Below, in pieces: positions 6,357 through 55,691 of a stretch of 55,691 nt of DNA. The DNA comes from an uncultured bacterium. Lineage in GTDB: Bacteria; RBG-13-61-14; DATKZS01. The stretch covers positions 1-55,691 of the forward strand of contig CAYQTK010000003.1 of NCBI GenBank assembly GCA_964420375.1. The letters run 5' to 3'. The notes under the pieces were generated by a model, which was given only the letters and a program-made list of their open reading frames with translations, made no database searches and was not told where the DNA came from. The translations under genes and the position numbers were made by a program. Position 1 is the stretch's first letter, and every line of letters starts with the position of its first letter.

Positions 6357-6365
6357 GCCTTTTCT

Positions 6366-6540
6366 TAGAGCCTCTTGCGAAACGGAGGTTTAATTTAATT
6401 TTGCGGCGCTGTTTTAAGAGTGCAGCAGCAAGCTGTCCGCTTTTTCCGCCGAGAAGCTTGCTTGTCGGAAATGCGCTCCACAAGAGGCCCGCAGTTTAGG
6501 AGGCGCCTTTTTGCAACGGAGTTTTGCAGGAGGCTCATTA
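6366..6540 (+). mobile_element. MITE-like palindromic repeat element (copy 2, internally shortened)
   Basis: TA-GAGCCTCTTGCGAAAC ... GTTTTGCAGGAGGCTC (14/16 inverted repeat). The body aligns with copies at 40366 and 55317 but lacks the 16-bp hairpin and the right REP-like unit. Confidence 0.85.
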
Positions 6541-9273: not shown

Positions 9274-10146
9274 CTAAAGAAAGCTCATTGCTGCGACCAC
9301 GAGTTTATCAGCGATGGCGGTAATGGTAAAGTCGATCACGATTATGATAAGTATCGAGGTCACCACAGCCCTGGTGGTGGCTAGACCCACCCCCCGGGCT
9401 CCGCCCACGCAGCGGAATCCGTAAAAGCAGCTCACGATGGGCACCACCCAGCCCAGGGCCACCGACTTCAAGATGAGGTTTATGAAGTCCGGCCAGGCCA
9501 CGTAAGAGTTCATTATACTGATATAGGACTGCATGTTAAAGGCGGGACGGCTGGCCAGGTATCCTCCGACAATGCAGCAGAAAAGTCCGATGATGCTGAG
9601 ACTGACCTGCATGACCATGCAGGCCGCGAAACGGGGAACAGCCAGGTAATGAACCGGGCTGACCCCCATGAGCTTCAAGGCGTCCACCTGGTCGGTGGTG
9701 TTCATGCTGCCTATCTCCGCGGTAAAGCCCGCGCCCACCTTGGCGGCCATCATGCAGGCGACCACGGTGGGACCGAACTCCCGGAAGAAAAGCAGGCCGG
9801 CCACACCCGGCACCAGGCTGGTGTTATGGAGAAGCCGGGAGAGCTGGAAGTTAAGCTCCAGCACGACGATCATGCCCATGAACCCCAGGGTTATTGCGAT
9901 AAGGGGCAGGGACTTCCAGCCGGCGAGCTCCGCCTGCGATATCATCAGTCTGATCCGGTAGGGCGGCCGGAGAAGATATAAGAGCGTCTCCACCAGGAGC
10001 TTGGCTATGCCCCCCAGTGTGTCCAGGAAACCGAGGATGGCCCCGCCGATGCCCCGCACGGTGATGCCCATCCTGGCGATGTAAAGTATCTGGTCCAGGG
10101 TGATAAGGATCACCCGCAAGGTGGGGTTCTTTATCCTCGTGCTCAT
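9274..10146 (-). CDS. mlaE: MlaE/YrbE-family ABC permease (B copy)
   Basis: REFGP, KVGAGFTAEIGSM, QVDALKLMG, GGARGVGLATTRAVV; start at ATG 10146 overlapping the upstream stop. Confidence 0.9.
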   Translation of the reverse strand: MSTRIKNPTLRVILITLDQILYIARMGITVRGIGGAILGFLDTLGGIAKLLVETLLYLLRPPYRIRLMISQAELAGWKSLPLIAITLGFMGMIVVLELNFQLSRLLHNTSLVPGVAGLLFFREFGPTVVACMMAAKVGAGFTAEIGSMNTTDQVDALKLMGVSPVHYLAVPRFAACMVMQVSLSIIGLFCCIVGGYLASRPAFNMQSYISIMNSYVAWPDFINLILKSVALGWVVPIVSCFYGFRCVGGARGVGLATTRAVVTSILIIIVIDFTITAIADKLVVAAMSFL

Positions 10147-11003
10147 GGTATCTCCATAAAGAAAAGAAATCTTTCGGCAACCTCGAAGGTGATCGAAGCC
10201 ACCCGGGCGATAATATAGTCCGCCAGGAAAATGGCAATGGAGCTGGTCACCAGGCAGGAGTTGACCGACCTGCCCACCCCTTCCGAGCCTCCCTCGGTAT
10301 AAAGGCCCTTGTAACAGCACACCGTTGACAGGACGACCCCGAAAAGAAGGCTCTTGAGCATGCCGTTGGACAAGGCCCAGGCAGCAGCCAGGCTGCGGAT
10401 GCTGGCGAAGTACTTGCCGAGACCCATGTCAGCCAAAAGGTAAGCGGAAAGCGCTCCCCCCGCGGTGGCGATGATCAGGCCCAGAATGGTCAGGATGAAG
10501 ATCATGACCGTCACCGCCAGGAAACGGGGGACCACCAGGAACTGGATGGGGTCCGCGCCCAGGCAGCGCACCGCGTCCACCTGCTCGGTCACCTTCATAG
10601 TCCCCAGCTCCGCGGTAATGTAAGCCCCCACCCGGGCGGCGATCATCACCGACACCAGCACCGGCCCGACCTCCCGCAGGATACCCGAGGTCGTCACTCC
10701 TCCCAGGTACTGAAGTGTGCCCGTGCCGAATTGGGAAAGCGCGTAATGAAACTGTATGGAAACGATGGCCCCCACAAAAAGGCCGGCCAGGCCCACTACC
10801 GGGATGGACCGGACTCCCACCTGGTAAAGCTGAATGATCAGCTCGCGGATCTCGAACGGGCGGCGGAAACCGCTCCGGATCACCTTGAGCAGGAAGATCA
10901 GCATTCCCCCGACCTCAAAAAGCACGGGTCCCAGCCAGGTGAAGAGATACCCCGTCACCATGAACGGGACCTGCCAGACAAGATTAAGAACCCGCTTTAT
11001 CAA
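10143..11003 (-). CDS. mlaE: MlaE/YrbE-family ABC permease (A copy)
   Basis: REVGP, RVGAYITAELGTMKVTEQVDA, GGSEGVG motifs. Start uncertain (TTG 11003 has GAGG upstream; ORF is open to 11090). Confidence 0.9.
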   Translation of the reverse strand: MIKRVLNLVWQVPFMVTGYLFTWLGPVLFEVGGMLIFLLKVIRSGFRRPFEIRELIIQLYQVGVRSIPVVGLAGLFVGAIVSIQFHYALSQFGTGTLQYLGGVTTSGILREVGPVLVSVMIAARVGAYITAELGTMKVTEQVDAVRCLGADPIQFLVVPRFLAVTVMIFILTILGLIIATAGGALSAYLLADMGLGKYFASIRSLAAAWALSNGMLKSLLFGVVLSTVCCYKGLYTEGGSEGVGRSVNSCLVTSSIAIFLADYIIARVASITFEVAERFLFFMEIP

Positions 11004-34424: not shown

Positions 34425-34734
34425 ACTGATCGGTAACTCTTTCTTTTGTACCACAGGCCCGGTGTAGAGTAAAGCTGAAGAGACGCCCGGAAGCCCCGTG
34501 TTTTTCTCGAAGTCTCCGTACGTCTGGCGGACAGGGAATTACAGAGCACATTTTTTTTCTTTGTCCCGCCTTTAGTATGTCTTTGGCGAGACTGAAAAAC
34601 AGCAGATAAACCGGCTTTTCCAACATCACCGAGCGCTGAGGTGGTCCGGGAGTTTTCTGGAGGGGCCTGATCGGTTTTATTGATTTATGCAGAAATAATG
34701 GTACGGGAGGAAGCGCTGGAACGAATTTATGTCC

Positions 34735-34753
34735 CGACTGAAGTCGCTCGCAC
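34735..34753 (-). repeat. GTGCGAGCG-type REP-like palindrome
   Basis: CGACTGAAGTCGCTCGCAC is the exact reverse complement of 38740-38758. Confidence 0.75.
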
Positions 34754-34944
34754 GTATCACATTACTTTTACAGAGCATGATAATGCCCGTCTTTGCGACA
34801 TGTATTAAGAAATCGTTTTTACATAGCTTCGTAAAGCCCTTGAAGCTTCAATATCCTTATGATAGTCTAAACATCATCCGGGTAGGGGATCGAGAACGGC
34901 CGGTTTGAAGCCGGTCTTTTATTGTTTCGGTATTTGGGAGGACC

Positions 34945-35235: not shown

Positions 35236-35321
35236 GCGGGGCCGCGCTTGCAAGATATCCGGAGAATATAGTTTTATATCAAGCTTATTAAAAATAAGGC
35301 ATATCATGTAAGTGACTTTAC

Positions 35322-35343
35322 TCGCGGCTTATGCCGCTCGCAC
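35322..35343 (-). repeat. GTGCGAGCG-type REP-like palindrome (variant)
   Basis: Minus strand reads GTGCGAGCGGC-ATAA-GCCGCGA, versus GTGCGAGCGAC-TTCA-GTCGCGA at 38740-38761; compensatory stem change. Confidence 0.7.
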
Positions 35344-35410
35344 CAGAGTCGCTTGCTGGATGGGCAGCTTGTTTGTGTTTCTTTGTTTTCGTCTCTGAGA
35401 GGTGCCTAAG

Positions 35411-36871
35411 ATGGAGCTTTACGAGCTTGGAGTTGTTCAACTTGCGGAGCGCATTCGACGGGGGGAAGCCGGATCGGTGGAGGCGGTCGAGTCGGTTCTC
35501 TCGCGGATCGATGCGGTTGATCCTAAAATCCACGCCTATCTTCACCTGAACCGGGAAGGTGCCCTGGCAGCGGCAGAGGAGGCCGACCGGGCGCGTTCAC
35601 GCGGTGAAGACAAACCTTTGCTGGGCGTTCCCCTGGGTATCAAGGACATCTTCCTCACCAAGGGGCTTCCTACCACCGCTGCTTCGCGGATACTGGAGAA
35701 CTACGTTCCCCCTTACGATTCCACTGCCGTGGCCCGCTTAAAGGACGCGGGAGCCATCGTCCTCGGCAAGTTCAACATGGACGAGTTCGCCATGGGCAGT
35801 TCGAACGAAAAGAGCGGGTTCATGCCCAGCAACAACCCGTGGAACTTGAGCCGGATACCGGGCGGCAGCTCGGGGGCCAATGCCGCGGCAATAGCTACCG
35901 ACTCCTGCCTCGGCTCGCTGGGCACTGACACCGGCGGCTCCATCCGACAGCCCGCCTCCTGCTGCGGGGTGGTGGGAATAAAGCCCACCTACGGCAGGGT
36001 GAGCCGCTACGGTGTCATCGCCTTTGCATCCAGCCTGGACCAGGTCGGAGCCATCACCAAGAACGTGGCTGACTCCGCATTGCTATTGAAGCTCATTGCC
36101 GGCCCCGACCCCATGGACTCGACCTCGGTGCCCATGGAGGTCCCCGACTATACCGAGTCTTTGAACCGCGATATCAAGGGCATGAAGGTGGGGCTGCCCA
36201 AGGAGTACTTTGCTGCCGGGCTGGACCCGGGCGTGGAGAAGGCGGTACGCGAGGCAGTGAAAAAGCTTTCGGACATGGGCGCCGAGATCGGAGAGGTCAG
36301 TCTTCCCCATGCCGAGTACTGCGTGGCCTGTTACTACATAATCGCCCCGGCAGAGGCCTCGGCCAACCTGGCCCGATATGACGGCGCCCGCTACGGCCTG
36401 CGCGTGCACGAGGGCGGCGGGCTCATGGACATGTATAAAAAGACGCGCGACCGGGGCTTCGGCCCGGAGGTCAAGCGGCGCATCCTGATCGGGACCTATA
36501 CCCTGAGCGCGGGCTACTACGACCAGTACTATCTCAAGGCCTGCCGGGTGCGGAACCTTATCAAGCAGGACTTTGACCGGGCCTTCCAGGACTACGACGT
36601 GCTGGTGGCCCCCACCATCCCCACGCCGCCCTTCAAGCAGGGCGAGAAGATGGACGACCCCCTGGCCATGTACATGCTCGACATCCTCACCCTGTCGTGC
36701 AACCTGGCAGGACTGCCCGGAATGACCGTGCCCTGCGGGTTCTCCGACGACGGACTGCCCACGGGCCTCCAAATCCTCGCCGGACACTTCAACGAACAGG
36801 CCATCTTCAGGCTCGCCCACGCCTACGAGCAGGCAACGGAATGGCATAAAAAAAGACCGGAGCTCACGTGA
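35411..36871 (+). CDS. gatA: Asp/Glu-tRNA amidotransferase subunit A
   Basis: GIKD, NMDEFAMGSS, PGGSSG, GTDTGGSIRQPA amidase signature, FGPEVKRRILIGTY; start ATG 35411 (or GTG 35402). Confidence 0.98.
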   Translation: MELYELGVVQLAERIRRGEAGSVEAVESVLSRIDAVDPKIHAYLHLNREGALAAAEEADRARSRGEDKPLLGVPLGIKDIFLTKGLPTTAASRILENYVPPYDSTAVARLKDAGAIVLGKFNMDEFAMGSSNEKSGFMPSNNPWNLSRIPGGSSGANAAAIATDSCLGSLGTDTGGSIRQPASCCGVVGIKPTYGRVSRYGVIAFASSLDQVGAITKNVADSALLLKLIAGPDPMDSTSVPMEVPDYTESLNRDIKGMKVGLPKEYFAAGLDPGVEKAVREAVKKLSDMGAEIGEVSLPHAEYCVACYYIIAPAEASANLARYDGARYGLRVHEGGGLMDMYKKTRDRGFGPEVKRRILIGTYTLSAGYYDQYYLKACRVRNLIKQDFDRAFQDYDVLVAPTIPTPPFKQGEKMDDPLAMYMLDILTLSCNLAGLPGMTVPCGFSDDGLPTGLQILAGHFNEQAIFRLAHAYEQATEWHKKRPELT

Positions 36872-36892: not shown

Positions 36893-38143
36893 ATGATCAC
36901 CAGGATTAAAATCGACGGTTATAAGTCCTTCAAGGATTTCGAGCTCCAGATGAAACCGTTGATGGTGCTTTTCGGTCCCAACACCAGCGGCAAGAGCAAC
37001 CTGCTGGATGCATTGCGACTTATCAGCCTGGTGGGATCTGAAAAGGACATGAAAGATGTTTTTAAAAAGCATCGCGGACGGGCCAAGGAGAGCTTGTGGC
37101 GAAAAGAGATGAATTTATCATCGAGCTCGTCTTACATGAGATTCGAAGCGGACGTAAACCTGAACGACGATGTCTGTAATGCAGTGGAGGACAGAATTTT
37201 CGAACTGAGGTCCGGACTTGATCATGCCAAGCAGGACGGAAAAAAGGTCATGATCAATGAGCGGAACCTGCGTTACTCTTTTGAACTTGAGGTCCAGTCT
37301 TCCGGGGCAACGCGGGTCACTGATGAGAGGCTCTGCGCTTTGACCAAGAGGTCCCCCCGCAAGGAAAGAGCCAGAAATCCTTTTATCGAGAAGGTGGAGG
37401 ACAAGATAAGGATAAGAAAGGAAAGCCAGTCTCATCCCATATTTCAAGACGTTGGTCTGGATCGTTCCGTGTTGTCTACTTCCCTTTATCCGCCTCATCA
37501 TCCTCATATGGAAACTTTAAAGGAAGAGCTCACCAGATGGAAGTTCTATTACTTCGAGCCTGGAAAGATCATGCGGGAGAAAGTCCCGGAGAGCGAGGTG
37601 GACTCCATAGGTGAGAGGGGGGAGGACCTTGCCGGGTTCTTTTACACTTTGAAAAACAGGTCGGAGAAGAATTTCCGAAGTGCCCGGCAGACGGCGAGAA
37701 AGCTTATACCCGGCATCGAGGATTTCGATGTGAAGCTTGACAAGAGAGACGCCATGGTGGAGCTGGTTATAAAGGAGAGCCGGGGTGACTTTTCCTCCGC
37801 GCTTATTTCGGAGGGAACGCTCAAGATACTGGGTATGCTTGCCATATTCCATTCCCTGACTCCTCCTGCCCTGATAGGAGACGAAGGGCCGGAGAACGGC
37901 GTCCACCCGGAGCGACTCCACCTTATAGCGGAGACCTTTAAGAACCTGGCCAGCTACCAGGGCTGCCAGGTCATCGTAAATACTCATTCGCCGGAGTTCG
38001 TCGAGCTTTTCGACGACGAAAACCTTTTTTCCTGTCGAAAGGAAGAAGGCGTTACAACCATCGAGCCTCTGGGAGAGATAAAGCCGTTGTTCCGCAAGAA
38101 CCAGATCAAAGACAGGCGCTCCGATATTCCCAGGGTGGAGTGA
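36893..38143 (+). CDS. ABC-type (AAA_21/AbiEii-like) ATPase of a two-gene defence-like module
   Basis: IKIDGYKSFKD, FGPNTSGKSNLLDAL, ISEGT signature, GDEGPENGVHP (Walker B/D-loop variant), QVIVNTHSP. Confidence 0.88.
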   Translation: MITRIKIDGYKSFKDFELQMKPLMVLFGPNTSGKSNLLDALRLISLVGSEKDMKDVFKKHRGRAKESLWRKEMNLSSSSSYMRFEADVNLNDDVCNAVEDRIFELRSGLDHAKQDGKKVMINERNLRYSFELEVQSSGATRVTDERLCALTKRSPRKERARNPFIEKVEDKIRIRKESQSHPIFQDVGLDRSVLSTSLYPPHHPHMETLKEELTRWKFYYFEPGKIMREKVPESEVDSIGERGEDLAGFFYTLKNRSEKNFRSARQTARKLIPGIEDFDVKLDKRDAMVELVIKESRGDFSSALISEGTLKILGMLAIFHSLTPPALIGDEGPENGVHPERLHLIAETFKNLASYQGCQVIVNTHSPEFVELFDDENLFSCRKEEGVTTIEPLGEIKPLFRKNQIKDRRSDIPRVE

Positions 38144-38148
38144 TACAA

Positions 38149-38886
38149 ATGGCGGACGAGATCAAGATAGGCTATTTCCTGGAAGACGTTGCCCACCGGG
38201 CCTTTATAACGGCATTTGTAAAAAGATTGTTAAAGCACAAGTACGGCGACGACCTCCAAGTGGAAGGGGATATTTTCTGCGAAAGCGGCGGGTCCAAAGA
38301 GATAAACAGCTTTAGAGCTTTTCTAAAAGAATGGAAAAAAGACAGTGATATTAGTTTGCCTTACCATTCGCTGGTTATAGGCCATGATTGCAACTGCAAG
38401 GGCAAAGAAACAATCAAAAAAAAGTTCAGCAAACCTGCCAGCAAGGCGGGCTACCCGGAGGACAGAATTATATACGCCTTGCCCGATCCTTACATAGAGC
38501 GCTGGTACCTGGCCGACCCCCGAGCGTTCTTGGAAACCATCGAAGGCAACGAGCCGCCCGGAGAGATACCTTACGTACATAAAAAGGGGAAGCAGACTTT
38601 TTACAAGGACAAGATGCAAGAGACTTTATGGAAAAACGGGATCGGGTCTTCACTGGCAGGCGCGGAGTTAGGAGACCGGATCGCGGAGCTTGTTGATATT
38701 ATACATAACGACTTAAATAAGTGCGCATGTTTAATTTCTGTGCGAGCGACTTCAGTCGCGATTAAAATCGCTCGCACATATGCATATGTTGAAATATGCG
38801 CAATTATTTGTGACGTTGTGTATAGTAAAGCAGGATATGTAGACCCCAATTTCAAAGACTTTGCCGAAGCAATAAAAAGGCTGTGA
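38149..38886 (+). CDS. DUF4276/RloB-like TOPRIM-fold protein, interrupted in frame by a 123-bp palindromic insertion
   Basis: FLED (TOPRIM Glu), [17 protein letters not shown] motifs; directly follows the ATPase; residues encoded by 38702-38824 look foreign. Confidence 0.72.
38700..38824. mobile_element. TA-flanked palindromic MITE (123 bp plus duplicated TA) with REP-like core
   Basis: Ends TATACATAACG / CGTTGTGTATA; inner arms AAATAAGTGCGCATGTTT / AAATATGCGCAATTATTT; core TGTGCGAGCGA..TCGCTCGCACA perfect 11-bp repeat; AT-rich relative to host genes. Confidence 0.85.
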
Positions 38887-38894
38887 GGGGAAGC

Positions 38895-40340
38895 ATGGAT
38901 TACGAAGCTGTGATCGGGCTGGAGGTTCACGCCCAGCTTTTTACAAGGTCGAAGATATTCTGCGGCTGTTCCACCGAGTTCGGCGCGCCGCCCAACACCC
39001 GCGTTTGCCCGGTCTGTATCGGACTTCCCGGAGTCCTGCCCGTGCCTAACCGGCAGGTGGTGGAGATGGCGCTCAAGACGGCGCTTGCTCTAAACTTCGA
39101 GATTCAAAGGCGGAGCATATGGGAGCGCAAGAACTACTTTTATCCTGATCTGCCCAAGGGCTACCAGATATCGCAGTACGCATATCCGCTGGCCAGGAAC
39201 GGCTGGATCGAGATCAAGGCAGGCGAGAAAGAAAAGCGCATCGGTATCACGCGGCTTCACATGGAGGAGGACGCCGGCAAGCTGGTGCATTCCGAAGACA
39301 CCTTTTCACGTGCCAATGCGAGCTTTGCGGACTTCAACCGGAGCGGGGTCCCCCTGATGGAGATAGTGAGCGAACCCGACATCCGGTCCGCACAAGAGGC
39401 CGGGGCGTATCTGCGGGCGCTCCGGAGCATACTGGTCTACCTGGGCGTTTGCGACGGCAACATGGAGCAGGGCTCACTCCGTTGCGACGCCAACGTGAGC
39501 GTCCGTCCGCCGGGCAGTGAAGACATGGGCACTCGTGCGGAGATAAAGAACATGAACTCCTTCCGGAACGTGGAGCGGGCCCTGGACTACGAGATAAAAA
39601 GGCAGTCCCGGCTGCTGGAATCGGGCAAGAATGTGGTGCAGGAGACGCGCCTGTGGGACGACCGGGAGGGCAAGACCGTGGCCATGCGCGGCAAGGAGGA
39701 GTCCCACGACTACCGCTATTTCCCGGACCCGGACCTCTTGCCGCTGGAAGTTGACGAACAGTGGACGAAAAGGCTGCGGGAGAGACTTCCCGAGCTTCCC
39801 ATGGAAAAAATGAAGCGTTTCGTGGCCGATTACGGCATCCCCGAGTATGACGCCTCGGTGCTGACCTCGGAGCGGTCGCTGGCGGACTACTACGAGGCCG
39901 CTCTAAAGACGGGCGCGGACGCCAAGAAGACGGCCAACTGGGTCATGTCCGAGCTTCTGCGCGAGCTCAAGGATGACGAGCGCGACATAACCGACTGTCC
40001 CGTAAGCGCGGAGCAGTTGGGCTCGCTGGTGGGTATGATAGACTCGGGCGAGATCACCGGCAAGATCGGCAAGACGGTGTTCGCCGAGATGTACAAGACG
40101 GGCAAGAGCCCGGCGGAGGTCATCGAGGAGAAGGGATTGAAGCCCATGGCGGACGAGGGAGAAATCGGGAGCATCTGTGACCGGGTGATAGCGGAGAATC
40201 CCAAGCAGGTCAAGCAGTACCGGGAGGGCAAGACCAAGGTGCTGGGATTCTTTGTAGGACAGGTCATGAAGGCCAGCGGAGGCAAGGCTGACCCTCAAAT
40301 TGTCAACCGCCTGCTCACAAAAAAGCTTGAACGGGCATAG
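38895..40340 (+). CDS. gatB: Asp/Glu-tRNA amidotransferase subunit B
   Basis: [77 protein letters not shown]. Confidence 0.98.
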
Positions 40341-40365
40341 GCGGGTTTCTTATAATTTTTATAAT

Positions 40366-40592
40366 TAGTGCCCGTTGCGAAACGGAGGTTTAATTTACTT
40401 TTGCGGCGCTGTTCTGGAGTGCGGCAGCAAGCTGTCCGCTTTTTCCGCCGGGAAGCTTGCTTCCCGGAAATTTGACCCACAAGAGGCTCGCAGTTTACGG
40501 GACGCATTTTCATAAGTTCCGGCAAGCCGGAACTTATGAAAGCGAAAGCAAGCTTTCGCACTCCGAAAACGGAATTTTCGCAACGGGAACTA
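40366..40592 (+). mobile_element. MITE-like palindromic repeat element (copy 3, apparently intact, no mini-palindrome insertion)
   Basis: TAGTGCCCGTTGCGAAA ... TTTCGCAACGGGAACTA (16/17 inverted repeat including TA). Internal hairpins at 40448-40467, 40508-40541 and 40542-40559. Confidence 0.9.
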
Positions 40593-40775
40593 GTTATATT
40601 TGAGCATAAGACCGGATGATGTTATAAATATATGCGAACGCCGAGGAGCGGAAATTATAAGGCCAAGACAAATCGCCCTTAAGGAGAAGCGGGAGGAGGT
40701 TAGGCTGAGGCCCCGGTTTTTTGAAACCGAATTCCGGCTCTCCCGGCAGCTAACTATTCAGCAAGGGGGAAGAAG

Positions 40776-55087: not shown

Positions 55088-55316
55088 TACTCCCTCCCTA
55101 AAGCTCGTTCCACTCCTTTAAAAACTGTGTAAGTATTACTCTCCCTCTCTCAAAAGGGAAAGCTCGAACACGGCAAATATACTAGAACTTGCCGGGTTTC
55201 TCAAAAATTCCCGGTTTTAAAGACAGCGTAGAAAATAGTTGTGCAAATGACAATGCTTGAAAACGCAGGGGCCGGCTCGGCAGGTTATCTGAAGATGATG
55301 TAACAGGTGAAATAAC

Positions 55317-55596
55317 TAGTGCCCGTTGCGAAACGGAGGTTTAATTTGCTTTTGCGGCGCTGTTTTGGAATGCGGCAGCAAGCTGTTCGCTTTTTCCGCC
55401 GGGATACTTGCTTGTCGGAAATGCGCTCCACAAGAGGCTCACAGTTTGCGAGGCGCCTGTTTGTAAGTTCCGGCAAGCCGGAACTTATGAAAGCGAAAGC
55501 AAGCTTTCCTGTCTGCCCTGTCTGCGTGTCCGCACAGGCAGGCGTGTCCGGCACAGGCAGGCGCACTCCGAAAACGGAGTTTCGAAACAGGCTCTA
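55317..55596 (+). mobile_element. MITE-like palindromic repeat element (copy 4) with doubly nested mini-palindrome insertion
   Basis: TA-GTGCCCGTTGCGAAAC ... GTTTCGAAACAGGCTC-TA; colinear with copy 3 apart from a 54-bp insert at 55508-55561. Confidence 0.9.
55508..55561. repeat. Nested CCTGTCTG...CAGGCAGG mini-palindromes
   Basis: CCTGTCTGC [CCTGTCTGCGTGTCCGCACAGGCAGG] CGTGTCCGGCACAGGCAGG; absent at the same site in copy 3 (TTT^CGCACTCC). Confidence 0.88.
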
Positions 55597-55691
55597 AATA
55601 TTTTTCGTGAGAGCGACTGATACCGCGTTTTTCGTGCTAGCCCGAGTTTCCTAGTTATAAAACAAACGCTCTAGTTCCCTATATATTCCAG

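What the first reader, a model, noticed from the sequence alone, without database searches (positions are those of the whole stretch)
38700..38824. 123-bp palindromic element inserted in frame inside a protein-coding gene
Seen: an AT-rich, near end-to-end hairpin bounded by TATACATAACG / CGTTGTGTATA. Removing it plus one TA removes exactly 41 codons and restores ...[25 protein letters not shown], a natural-looking C-terminal helix. The insert has no stop in this frame and adds a Cys-rich peptide ([40 protein letters not shown]). Known: TA duplication is typical of IS630/Tc1-mariner-type MITEs, and in-frame palindromic insertions are described for Rickettsia palindromic elements. Inference: either a tolerated protein-extending insertion or an inactivating hit on a toxic effector that gene callers miss because the ORF stays open.
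Basis: partly seen in the sequence, partly recalled or inferred. Interest (0 to 1): 0.75.

Follow-up and report, generated by a model that had tools for sequence, protein, structure and literature searches.

The report
In-frame palindromic repeat inside a nuclease gene
A 121-123 bp hairpin-forming repeat element, built around a REP-type motif, has landed in frame in the tail of a defence-type nuclease gene without breaking the reading frame, which is a known kind of event and not a new one.

Summary
Window 38700-38824 is an AT-rich, imperfect, near end-to-end palindrome (RNA MFE -55.7 kcal/mol, z -6.1). It adds exactly 41 codons with no stop to a 245-aa ORF (38149-38886). Five close homologues show a clean 41-column gap there. 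Of 129 homologues, 125 have no residue in the insert columns.

A TA repeat does flank the element. However, I found no second copy of the 123-bp element and no transposase. The new finding is that its centre (38740-38777) is two overlapping, inverted REP-type units. The same unit recurs at 34728-34756 and 35318-35346. Its 19-mer core occurs 57 times in 55 loci of other genomes, as REPIN-like doublets in Xanthomonadales.

The most likely reading is a composite REP/REPIN-class palindromic element that inserted as one unit at the turn between the last two helices of a DUF4276 (Toprim-like) partner of an ABC-type ATPase, and is probably tolerated. Intragenic REPs, and REP dimers nested in long palindromes, are already described (PMC3733652). 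It is a new member of a known kind, of moderate to low interest.

The parts
38700..38824 (+). Whole palindromic insertion including both flanking TA dinucleotides (125 nt; element plus one TA = 123 nt = 41 codons)
   Evidence: absent from homologues
38700..38701 (.). Left TA of the possible 2-bp target duplication
   Evidence: Read: the only direct repeat at a distance of 123 nt; weak evidence because it is only 2 bp
38823..38824 (.). Right TA of the possible 2-bp target duplication
   Evidence: Read
38702..38738 (+). Left AT-rich outer arm (not REP-like, no other copy found)
38740..38762 (+). REP-type unit A: 4-nt tag, GA, 5-bp stem, 4-nt loop, 3-nt tail
   Evidence: Covariance model R1: 45.4 bits, E 3.5e-7; 19-mer core shared with 55 loci
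38755..38777 (-). REP-type unit B in inverted orientation, overlapping unit A by 8 nt; its stem differs from A by a compensatory pair
   Evidence: R1: 24.0 bits, E 0.0042; 3 mismatches to the 19-mer
38779..38822 (+). Right AT-rich outer arm
38149..38886 (+). Host gene: DUF4276-family (Toprim-like) protein, 245 aa including the 41 inserted residues (about 185-225)
36893..38143 (+). Partner ABC-type ATPase (AAA_21 / AAA_15; PADLOC HEC-01A-like)
34728..34756 (-). Solitary REP-type unit upstream of gatC (exact 19-mer core)
   Evidence: 31.2 bits, E 1.8e-4; no long hairpin around it (z -0.94)
35318..35346 (-). Diverged REP-type unit between gatC and gatA, with both stem sides changed so that pairing is kept
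   Evidence: 16.4 bits, E 0.12: weak on its own

Best explanation
A non-autonomous palindromic repeat element of the REP/REPIN class inserted as one unit into the 3' part of a DUF4276 (Toprim-like) gene. The element is 121 bp, or 123 bp with one TA. It consists of two overlapping inverted REP-type units flanked by about 40-nt AT-rich inverted arms.

Shown:
- The 41 codons are absent from all relatives.
- The stretch is a strong hairpin.
- Its centre is a motif that is repeated in the window and in other genomes.
- The reading frame stays open.
- The catalytic-core residues and the C-terminal helix are kept.

Inferred:
- The element was moved in trans, most likely by a REP-associated tyrosine transposase encoded elsewhere in the genome.
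- It survived because it has 41 stop-free codons and sits at a helix-turn-helix junction on the protein surface, so the protein probably still folds.
- As RNA it adds a very stable hairpin about 60 nt before the stop codon, inside an apparent gatC-gatA-ATPase-DUF4276-gatB operon. There it may alter mRNA stability or translation, but it does not look like a terminator.
For: Insertion:
- Five homologues show a clean 41-column gap.
- 125 of 129 homologues of 180-300 aa have 0 residues in the insert columns; 3 have 1 and 1 has 11.
- All listed best stretches of the 150 top representatives end near query residue 184.

Foreign origin:
- The insert is 37% G+C against 48% for the host gene.
- Neither arm matches anything else in the window.

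REP nature of the centre:
- The 19-mer occurs 3 times in the window at up to 3 mismatches, against 0.01 expected.
- Model R1 finds four units in the window, all within 34.7-38.8 kb.
- The 19-mer gave 57 exact matches in 55 loci of genome contigs. About 4 are expected for a uniform 19-mer (my arithmetic).
- 45 of 57 matches continue with CGA, and 10 of 57 have an inverted partner within 120 nt, forming long hairpins in Xanthomonas, Rhodanobacter and Lysobacterales loci.
- 21 of the 55 loci come from a single MAG.
- The layout (tag, GW dinucleotide, 5-bp stem, 4-nt loop, 3-nt tail) matches the GTAG-1/2 layout in PMC3733652 (section 5 and Table 1 read).
- That paper also reports intragenic REPs, and REP dimers nested in long palindromes that begin TATAGGA (sections 7 and 15 read).

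One-step insertion: the central doublet is 38 nt, so the remaining 85 nt would shift the frame if inserted alone (inference).

Tolerance:
- In the AF2 model the core is above pLDDT 90 and the C-terminal helix is at 93-94. The insert is at pLDDT 51-70 and forms two helices between H172-181 and H227-244.
- In the insert-free homologue P0003 the equivalent spot is a 2-residue turn between H169-178 and H181-187.
- The nearly invariant residues E12, D13, D80, W119 and K153 are present.

Not a terminator: there is no terminator-like site on the + strand between 35201 and 40372.
Against: - No second copy of the whole 123-bp element was found anywhere I could look, so mobility of the composite is not shown. 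The insert peptide has no match in proteins of 30-429 aa.
- No RAYT or other transposase lies in the window.
- All four window units carry the tag GTGC, not GTAG/GTGG, so strict membership of the GTAG superfamily is not met.
- The TA flanks and 11-nt terminal inverted repeats fit a DDE-type MITE equally well.
- REP units are confined to 4 kb of the 55.7-kb window. That is not the dispersed pattern of a REP-rich genome.
- Tolerance of the insert rests on a low-confidence part of a model.
- The insert-bearing model lost the weak OLD-like fold match that the insert-free homologue gives.
Confidence: 0.5

Rival explanations
1. A classical MITE derived from a TA-targeting DDE transposon (IS630/Tc1-mariner type), mobilised through its 11-nt terminal inverted repeats. 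On this view the REP-like centre is incidental or captured cargo.
For: - The terminal inverted repeats match at 10 of 11 positions.
- TA lies at both ends at exactly the distance that gives 123 nt.
- The size and the end-to-end hairpin are typical of MITEs (MITE features as listed in passages of PMC3184786).
Against: - A 2-bp repeat in AT-rich sequence is weak evidence.
- No transposase is present in the window.
- No other copy with these termini was found.
- The only part shown to be repeated is the REP-type centre.
Confidence: 0.2
2. Two successive events: an 83-85 bp AT-rich palindromic element inserted first, and a REP doublet later inserted into its centre.
For: - REPs are reported to insert into palindromic targets (PMC3733652, section 7, the T. 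roseum case).
- The centre is 50-55% G+C and the arms are AT-rich.
Against: - The intermediate would not be a multiple of 3 and would have broken the frame (inference from the coordinates).
- No arm-only copy was found.
- In the two closest published cases, target palindromes without REPs were not found (PMC3733652, section 7).
Confidence: 0.1
3. The insertion inactivates the nuclease: a disabling hit on a potentially toxic effector. The ORF stays open only by chance, and the gene is on its way to decay.
For: - The chance that such a sequence stays open is not negligible: 4.8% of shuffles, times 1/3 for length.
- The insert is modelled with low confidence.
- The insert-bearing model no longer retrieves OLD-type folds.
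Against: - No other lesion is seen. The ATPase matches AAA_21 end to end, profile positions 1-304 of 304.
- The conserved core residues of the host protein are intact.
- The 20 residues after the insert align with P0002 across the gap; I count 15 of 20 identical by eye.
Confidence: 0.25
4. Assembly or amplification artefact (a fold-back chimera) and not real sequence.
For: The window appears to be an assembled contig of an uncultured organism. Its closest protein relative is annotated as a MAG protein.
Against: - The palindrome is imperfect (81-85% arm complementarity), asymmetric (arms of 37 and 44 nt) and internal to a 55.7-kb contig.
- Its centre is a motif found independently in many public genomes.
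Confidence: 0.03

Closest known systems
Intragenic GTAG/CGTC-tagged REPs, and REP dimers nested in long palindromes (Di Nocera, De Gregorio and Rocco 2013, PMC3733652; abstract, sections 5 and 7, passages of sections 15-17 and Table 1 read)
   Same: - A short stem-loop unit with a 4-nt tag, a GW dinucleotide and a 3-nt tail.
- Units paired in inverted orientation.
- Units lying entirely inside ORFs and read through as extra residues.
- In A. variabilis, dimers sit in the centre of a long palindrome whose ends begin TATAGGA and end TCCTATA. That is the same layout as here.
   Different: - The tag here is GTGC, not GTAG/GTGG.
- The two units overlap by 8 nt and are not 1-100 bp apart.
- The arms have a different sequence.
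- High copy number and a linked RAYT could not be shown for this genome.
- The paper's list of intragenic REPs is in an old .xls supplement that I did not open.
REPINs mobilised by RAYTs (Bertels and Rainey 2011, PMC3116915, and PMC3337134: search listing and abstracts only)
   Same: Two inverted REPs form one hairpin and are treated as a non-autonomous mobile unit. The same 19-mer core forms such doublets in Rhodanobacter and Xanthomonas loci.
   Different: - In classical REPINs the REPs are the outer arms, separated by a spacer. Here they are fused at the tip of the hairpin, and unrelated AT-rich arms form most of the stem.
- REPINs are described as extragenic.
Rickettsia palindromic elements (RPE), as summarised in PMC10969869 and PMC3733652 (passages read)
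   Same: Palindromic repeats of about 100-150 bp inserted in frame into unrelated genes, adding a peptide at sites thought to be compatible with the fold.
   Different: - Sequence relationship to RPEs was not tested.
- RPE families are multi-copy with a conserved peptide. Here only one copy is known, and no protein with the same peptide exists in the searched collection.
TA-flanked bacterial MITEs such as the Neisseria Correia/NEMIS elements (recalled from memory; NEMIS is named as a MITE in PMC3733652)
   Same: Size of about 100-155 bp, terminal inverted repeats beginning TATA, TA at both ends, and a stable RNA hairpin when co-transcribed.
   Different: - No sequence similarity was tested.
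- No multi-copy family or cognate transposase is shown here.
- The centre here is REP-type.

Membership tests
GTAG-tagged REP superfamily (PMC3733652) | Unpaired terminal tag fitting GTAG (published variants: GYAG, GYRG, GTRG, GTMG, GTGG) | tested here: not met
   All four window units begin GTGC. The 4th position differs from every published variant. In the Rhodanobacter doublets, the partner arms of the same core read GTGG or GTAG, so the unit is probably a derived variant. Strict membership is not claimed.
GTAG-tagged REP superfamily (PMC3733652) | Short stem-loop (stem 5-13 bp, loop 2-20 nt) with, for GTAG-1/2, a GW dinucleotide before the stem and a 3-nt tail after it | tested here: met
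   The unit has a 5-bp stem, a 4-nt loop, GA before the stem and GAT/GAC after it. Two window units keep the stem through changes on both sides.
GTAG-tagged REP superfamily (PMC3733652) | Repeated many times in the genome, mostly between genes | not testable with these tools
   Only 55.7 kb of the source genome is available. It holds four units at three sites, all within 4 kb. In other genomes: 57 exact 19-mer matches in 55 loci, 21 of those loci from one MAG.
REPIN/RAYT system | Two REPs in inverted orientation forming one hairpin | tested here: met
   Units at 38740-38762 (+) and 38755-38777 (-). They overlap by 8 nt and are not separated by a spacer.
REPIN/RAYT system | A cognate RAYT (Y1 HUH transposase) gene in the genome, usually flanked by the REPs | not testable with these tools
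   None of the 42 window ORFs scanned against Pfam is a transposase. The rest of the genome is not available.
MITE of the IS630/Tc1-mariner type | Terminal inverted repeats and a TA target-site duplication | tested here: inconclusive
   The 11-nt termini match at 10 of 11 positions. TA lies at both ends. A 2-bp repeat in AT-rich sequence is expected by chance roughly once in ten (my estimate).
MITE of the IS630/Tc1-mariner type | Multiple dispersed copies and a parent transposon with the same termini | tested here: not met
   No other copy was found in the window, in the 55 loci, in plasmids or in phages. No transposase is in the window. The search was limited: the arms were not scanned against genome or metagenome collections.
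Rickettsia palindromic elements | Sequence membership in one of the RPE families | not tested
   No RPE sequence was on hand. Only the behaviour (in-frame intragenic palindrome) is shared.
DUF4276 (PF14103) / Toprim superfamily (host gene) | Match to the Pfam model, plus a conserved Glu near strand 1 and an acidic motif after strand 3 | tested here: inconclusive
   - The protein itself scores E 0.25 and 12 bits against a 30.2-bit cut-off.
- 42 of 65 aligned relatives match PF14103.
- E12/D13 and D80 are conserved.
- The insert-free homologue's best PDB fold hit is the OLD C-terminal region 6nk8_A (E 3.6e-3, TM 0.44). That is weak: no match had E <= 0.001.
- The Toprim assignment of DUF4276 is taken from passages of PMC12065111.

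The most novel reading that the evidence does not exclude
The REP-cored palindrome is not a passive passenger. It would be a host-repeat insertion that tunes or tames a horizontally acquired ATPase-Toprim defence pair lodged inside the essential gatCAB operon. Two routes are possible: the stable sense-strand hairpin could set the mRNA fate of the cassette and of gatB, or the added Cys-containing helical hairpin could change how the nuclease is regulated. A further possibility is that composites of this kind (a fused REP doublet plus AT-rich arms) are a distinct, self-contained mobile unit that prefers stop-free, in-frame landings.
Probability: 0.07. Interest if true: 0.65.

Novelty: new member of a known kind. 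Interest (0 to 1): 0.35.

Why it matters
The case shows how a gene caller silently accepts a repeat-derived 41-residue insert as ordinary protein sequence. It adds a non-Rickettsia, non-model example of a palindromic repeat read through in frame, this time in the putative nuclease of an OLD-like two-gene defence pair. If the composite proves to be multi-copy, it would be a useful marker family for this uncultured lineage and a natural test of how much insertion a Toprim-like effector tolerates. By itself it opens no new question, because intragenic REPs, RPEs and in-frame MITEs have been described since 2000-2013.

Tried and rejected
- Other copies of the whole element: none in the window (blastn-short and blastn, self-BLAST), none beyond the 20-38 nt core in the 55 loci, none in plasmids or phages.
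- Insert peptide (residues 184-227) against the protein collection: only the query itself among proteins of 134-429 aa, and no candidate at 30-133 aa. Proteins longer than 429 aa were not searched.
- Rfam: no family at gathering score anywhere in the window. At E <= 1 the only hits were sub-threshold matches to two animal microRNA hairpin models (32.3 bits against an 81-bit cut-off). I take these as generic AT-rich hairpin resemblance.
- Terminator reading: no terminator-like site at the element.
- Second locus 34660-34830 as a degenerate full copy: rejected. Only the core aligns and there is no significant hairpin (z -0.94).
- Larger shared segments between the window and the 55 loci: none at E <= 1e-6.
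- PADLOC and NCBIfam give nothing for the host protein.
- Fold search with the insert-bearing model gave only unrelated weak hits.
- Literature search for the 14-nt stem-loop string found 0 papers.
- Taxonomic placement through cluster look-up could not be made because the database was switched off.
- Intron, intein or archaeal bulge-helix-bulge readings were considered and dropped on size and on the bacterial gene content, without a specific test.

Full report
**1. The observation**

The sequence at 38700-38824 is as described.
- The two 11-nt termini are the only matches to their pattern in the window.
- The repeat finder reports nested inverted repeats. The outer arms are 38697-38732 / 38792-38827 (36 nt, 81% complementary) and the inner arms are 38739-38758 / 38759-38778 (20 nt, 85%).
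- The sense RNA folds almost end to end at -55.7 kcal/mol, against -34.4 +/- 3.5 for 200 dinucleotide shuffles (z -6.1, none as good).
- Folded as DNA it gives z -5.8.
- The antisense RNA is 7.5 kcal/mol weaker (-48.2). Some arm mismatches are therefore G-U pairs on the sense strand only.
- The insert is 37% G+C. The 5' part of the host gene is 48%, the upstream ATPase gene 51%, gatA and gatB 60-62%, and the window 56%.

**2. It is a derived, in-frame insertion**

The ORF 38149-38886 (245 aa) reads through the element.

The word-indexed search gave 5 relatives besides the query itself, out of 405 candidates. All five show a clean 41-column gap exactly after ...VDI. The closest is P0002, a 135-aa fragment that is 85% identical over the matched stretches. 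It resumes with a closely similar C-terminal helix directly after the gap.

The exhaustive HMMER search gave 333 representatives at E <= 0.001, of which the best 150 are listed. Typical lengths are about 200 aa, and the best stretches end near query residue 184.

I aligned the 130 of 154 stored proteins that are 180-300 aa long; 24 shorter or longer ones were dropped as fragments or fusions. Among the 129 homologues, 125 have no residue in the insert columns, 3 have one and 1 has eleven.

At a distance of 123 nt the only direct repeat is TA (38700-38701 and 38823-38824, read). So the element is 121 bp, or 123 bp with one TA, which is 41 codons.

Only the host frame and its antisense are free of stops. 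Shuffled versions stay open in 963 of 20000 trials. Combined with the one-in-three chance of a length divisible by three, about 1.6% of random insertions of this kind would leave the ORF open. This suggests survivorship of a harmless hit, not design, and the case was noticed precisely because it is in frame.

**3. What the element is made of**

BLAST of the element against the window found one further 19-nt exact match, at 34735-34753 on the minus strand (0.01 expected).

It returned 55 loci with 57 matches. A uniform 19-mer would give about four (my arithmetic).

No locus shares more than 20-38 nt with the element, so the 123-bp composite itself was not found.

The matches define a longer conserved unit:
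- 45 of 57 continue with CGA, and 39 of 57 with CGA followed by C or T.
- The unit folds as a 5-bp stem with a 4-nt loop.
- In 10 of 57 cases an inverted partner lies within 120 nt and the pair forms a long hairpin. All ten are in Xanthomonas, Rhodanobacter or Lysobacterales records. This is the REPIN layout.
- 21 of the 55 loci come from one unclassified MAG. Smaller groups come from two 'delta proteobacterium' MAGs, a Chitinophagales MAG and another uncultured bacterium.
- A few hits lie in what look like coding regions of unrelated organisms and may be chance, for example L012, L029 and L030.

I built a covariance model from 56 of the 57 instances; one was too close to a locus end. Run over the whole window without filters, it finds four units and nothing else below E = 4:

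| Position | Strand | Bits | E-value |
|---|---|---|---|
| 38737-38765 | + | 45.4 | 3.5e-7 |
| 34728-34756 | - | 31.2 | 1.8e-4 |
| 38752-38780 | - | 24.0 | 0.0042 |
| 35318-35346 | - | 16.4 | 0.12 |

(All.)

The centre of the element is therefore two complete units in opposite orientation that share 8 nt. The minus-strand unit, and the unit between gatC and gatA, keep the stem through changes on both sides.

**4. Comparison with the literature**

The layout is a 4-nt tag, a GA dinucleotide, a stem-loop and a 3-nt tail. This is the layout given for GTAG-1/2 REPs by Di Nocera et al. 2013 (PMC3733652, section 5 and Table 1 read). The tag here is GTGC, which is outside the published variants, so I do not claim strict membership.

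The same paper reports REPs lying wholly inside ORFs in several species. It discusses that such inserts may be neutral when they fall in loops or linkers, and describes inserts encoding 20-30 residues, with clusters up to 82 (section 15 and discussion passages read).

[quoted passage not shown] That is the same architecture as here, with a different sequence.

In-frame fusion of MITEs and RPEs with host ORFs is reviewed in PMC10969869 and PMC3184786 (passages read).

The phenomenon is thus known. A search for the 14-nt stem-loop string in the paper library found nothing.

**5. The host gene and its setting**

- The upstream gene (36893-38143) matches AAA_21 end to end (E 2.5e-26) as well as AAA_15.
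- In PADLOC it matches HEC-01A models best (E 1.8e-58). AriA, AbiLi, mad3 and Old follow further down the list.
- In NCBIfam it matches the MAD3 model below the cut-off (140 bits against 420).
- The host protein matches nothing in PADLOC or NCBIfam and matches DUF4276 only at E 0.25. However, 42 of 65 aligned relatives are DUF4276.
- DUF4276 has been assigned to the Toprim superfamily and linked to Mad4 (PMC12065111, passages read). It is listed among partners of AAA_15/21 ATPases (PMC11464382, figure legend read).
- The insert-free homologue P0003 models at mean pLDDT 96.7. Its best solved-structure match is the C-terminal Toprim region of OLD nucleases (6nk8_A, E 3.6e-3, TM 0.44). This is weak, since no match had E <= 0.001.
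- The pair lies between gatA and gatB on the same strand, with spacers of 5-21 nt and no terminator-like site on that strand between 35201 and 40372. The hairpin is therefore almost certainly transcribed with gatB.

**6. Effect on the protein**

The AF2 model of the window protein has a mean pLDDT of 87.6.
- 181 of 245 residues are at or above pLDDT 90, and the 10-residue blocks through residue 180 average 87-98. The C-terminal helix is at 93-94.
- Residues 181-230 fall to block means of 51-70. They form two helices (189-197 and 208-221) between H172-181 and H227-244.
- In P0003 the corresponding point is a two-residue turn between H169-178 and H181-187.
- The nearly invariant residues of the family are all present.

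This fits a surface excursion that need not destroy the fold, but the model of the insert itself is not reliable. The insert-bearing model retrieves no OLD-like fold.

**7. Mechanism**

I favour a one-step insertion of the composite. The 38-nt doublet alone, or the 85-nt remainder alone, would each shift the frame (inference).

The element was probably moved in trans by a REP-associated tyrosine transposase, because the only demonstrably repeated part is the REP-type doublet.

The main rival is a TA-targeting DDE-type MITE, which the termini and the TA fit equally well. Neither enzyme is encoded in the window.

**8. What stayed unchecked**

- The outer arms were not scanned against any genome or metagenome collection.
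- The DNA of the nearest insert-free relative could not be fetched.
- The organism could not be placed.
- Proteins longer than 429 aa were not searched for the peptide.
- The .xls supplement of PMC3733652 that lists intragenic REPs was not opened.

**9. Verdict**

It is a new member of a known kind.

Noticed in passing
window 36893-38886, between gatA (35402-36871) and gatB (38895-40340): An ABC-type ATPase (HEC-01A / MAD3-like) and a DUF4276 Toprim-like gene sit inside the gatC-gatA-gatB cluster. They are on the same strand, tightly spaced, and about 10 points lower in G+C than the gat genes. This looks like a horizontally acquired OLD-like two-gene defence pair lodged in an essential operon.
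   Followed up: partly
window 6365-6516, 40361-40598, 55312-55601 and 1-88: A separate intergenic repeat family of about 150-290 bp (86-89% identity between copies), with an inner 34-nt palindrome at 40508-40541. It is unrelated to the element and has no Rfam match.
   Followed up: partly
window 34728-34756 (-) and 35318-35346 (-): Solitary REP-type units lie upstream of gatC and between gatC and gatA. All four REP-type units of the 55.7-kb window lie within 4 kb around the gat cluster, and none lies elsewhere.
   Followed up: yes
loci L006, L018, L020, L045, L047, L052 (one unclassified MAG): In these loci the REP-type unit is embedded in a longer shared repeat. In L020 two units lie 122 nt apart, which suggests a larger tandem or mosaic repeat in that genome.
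   Followed up: no
locus L025 (Abditibacterium MAG), around position 601: The same 19-mer forms the tip of a perfect palindrome of about 50 nt. This is another case where the unit sits at the centre of a longer inverted repeat.
   Followed up: no
window 38601-38930 (-): A 109-aa antisense ORF runs through the element because the palindrome is also stop-free in the antisense phase. It is probably spurious, but a gene caller could report it.
   Followed up: no
window 9610-9753 and 10503-10646: There is 70% nucleotide similarity between two adjacent MlaE permease genes. These are tandem paralogues next to two ABC ATPase genes and MlaD.
   Followed up: no
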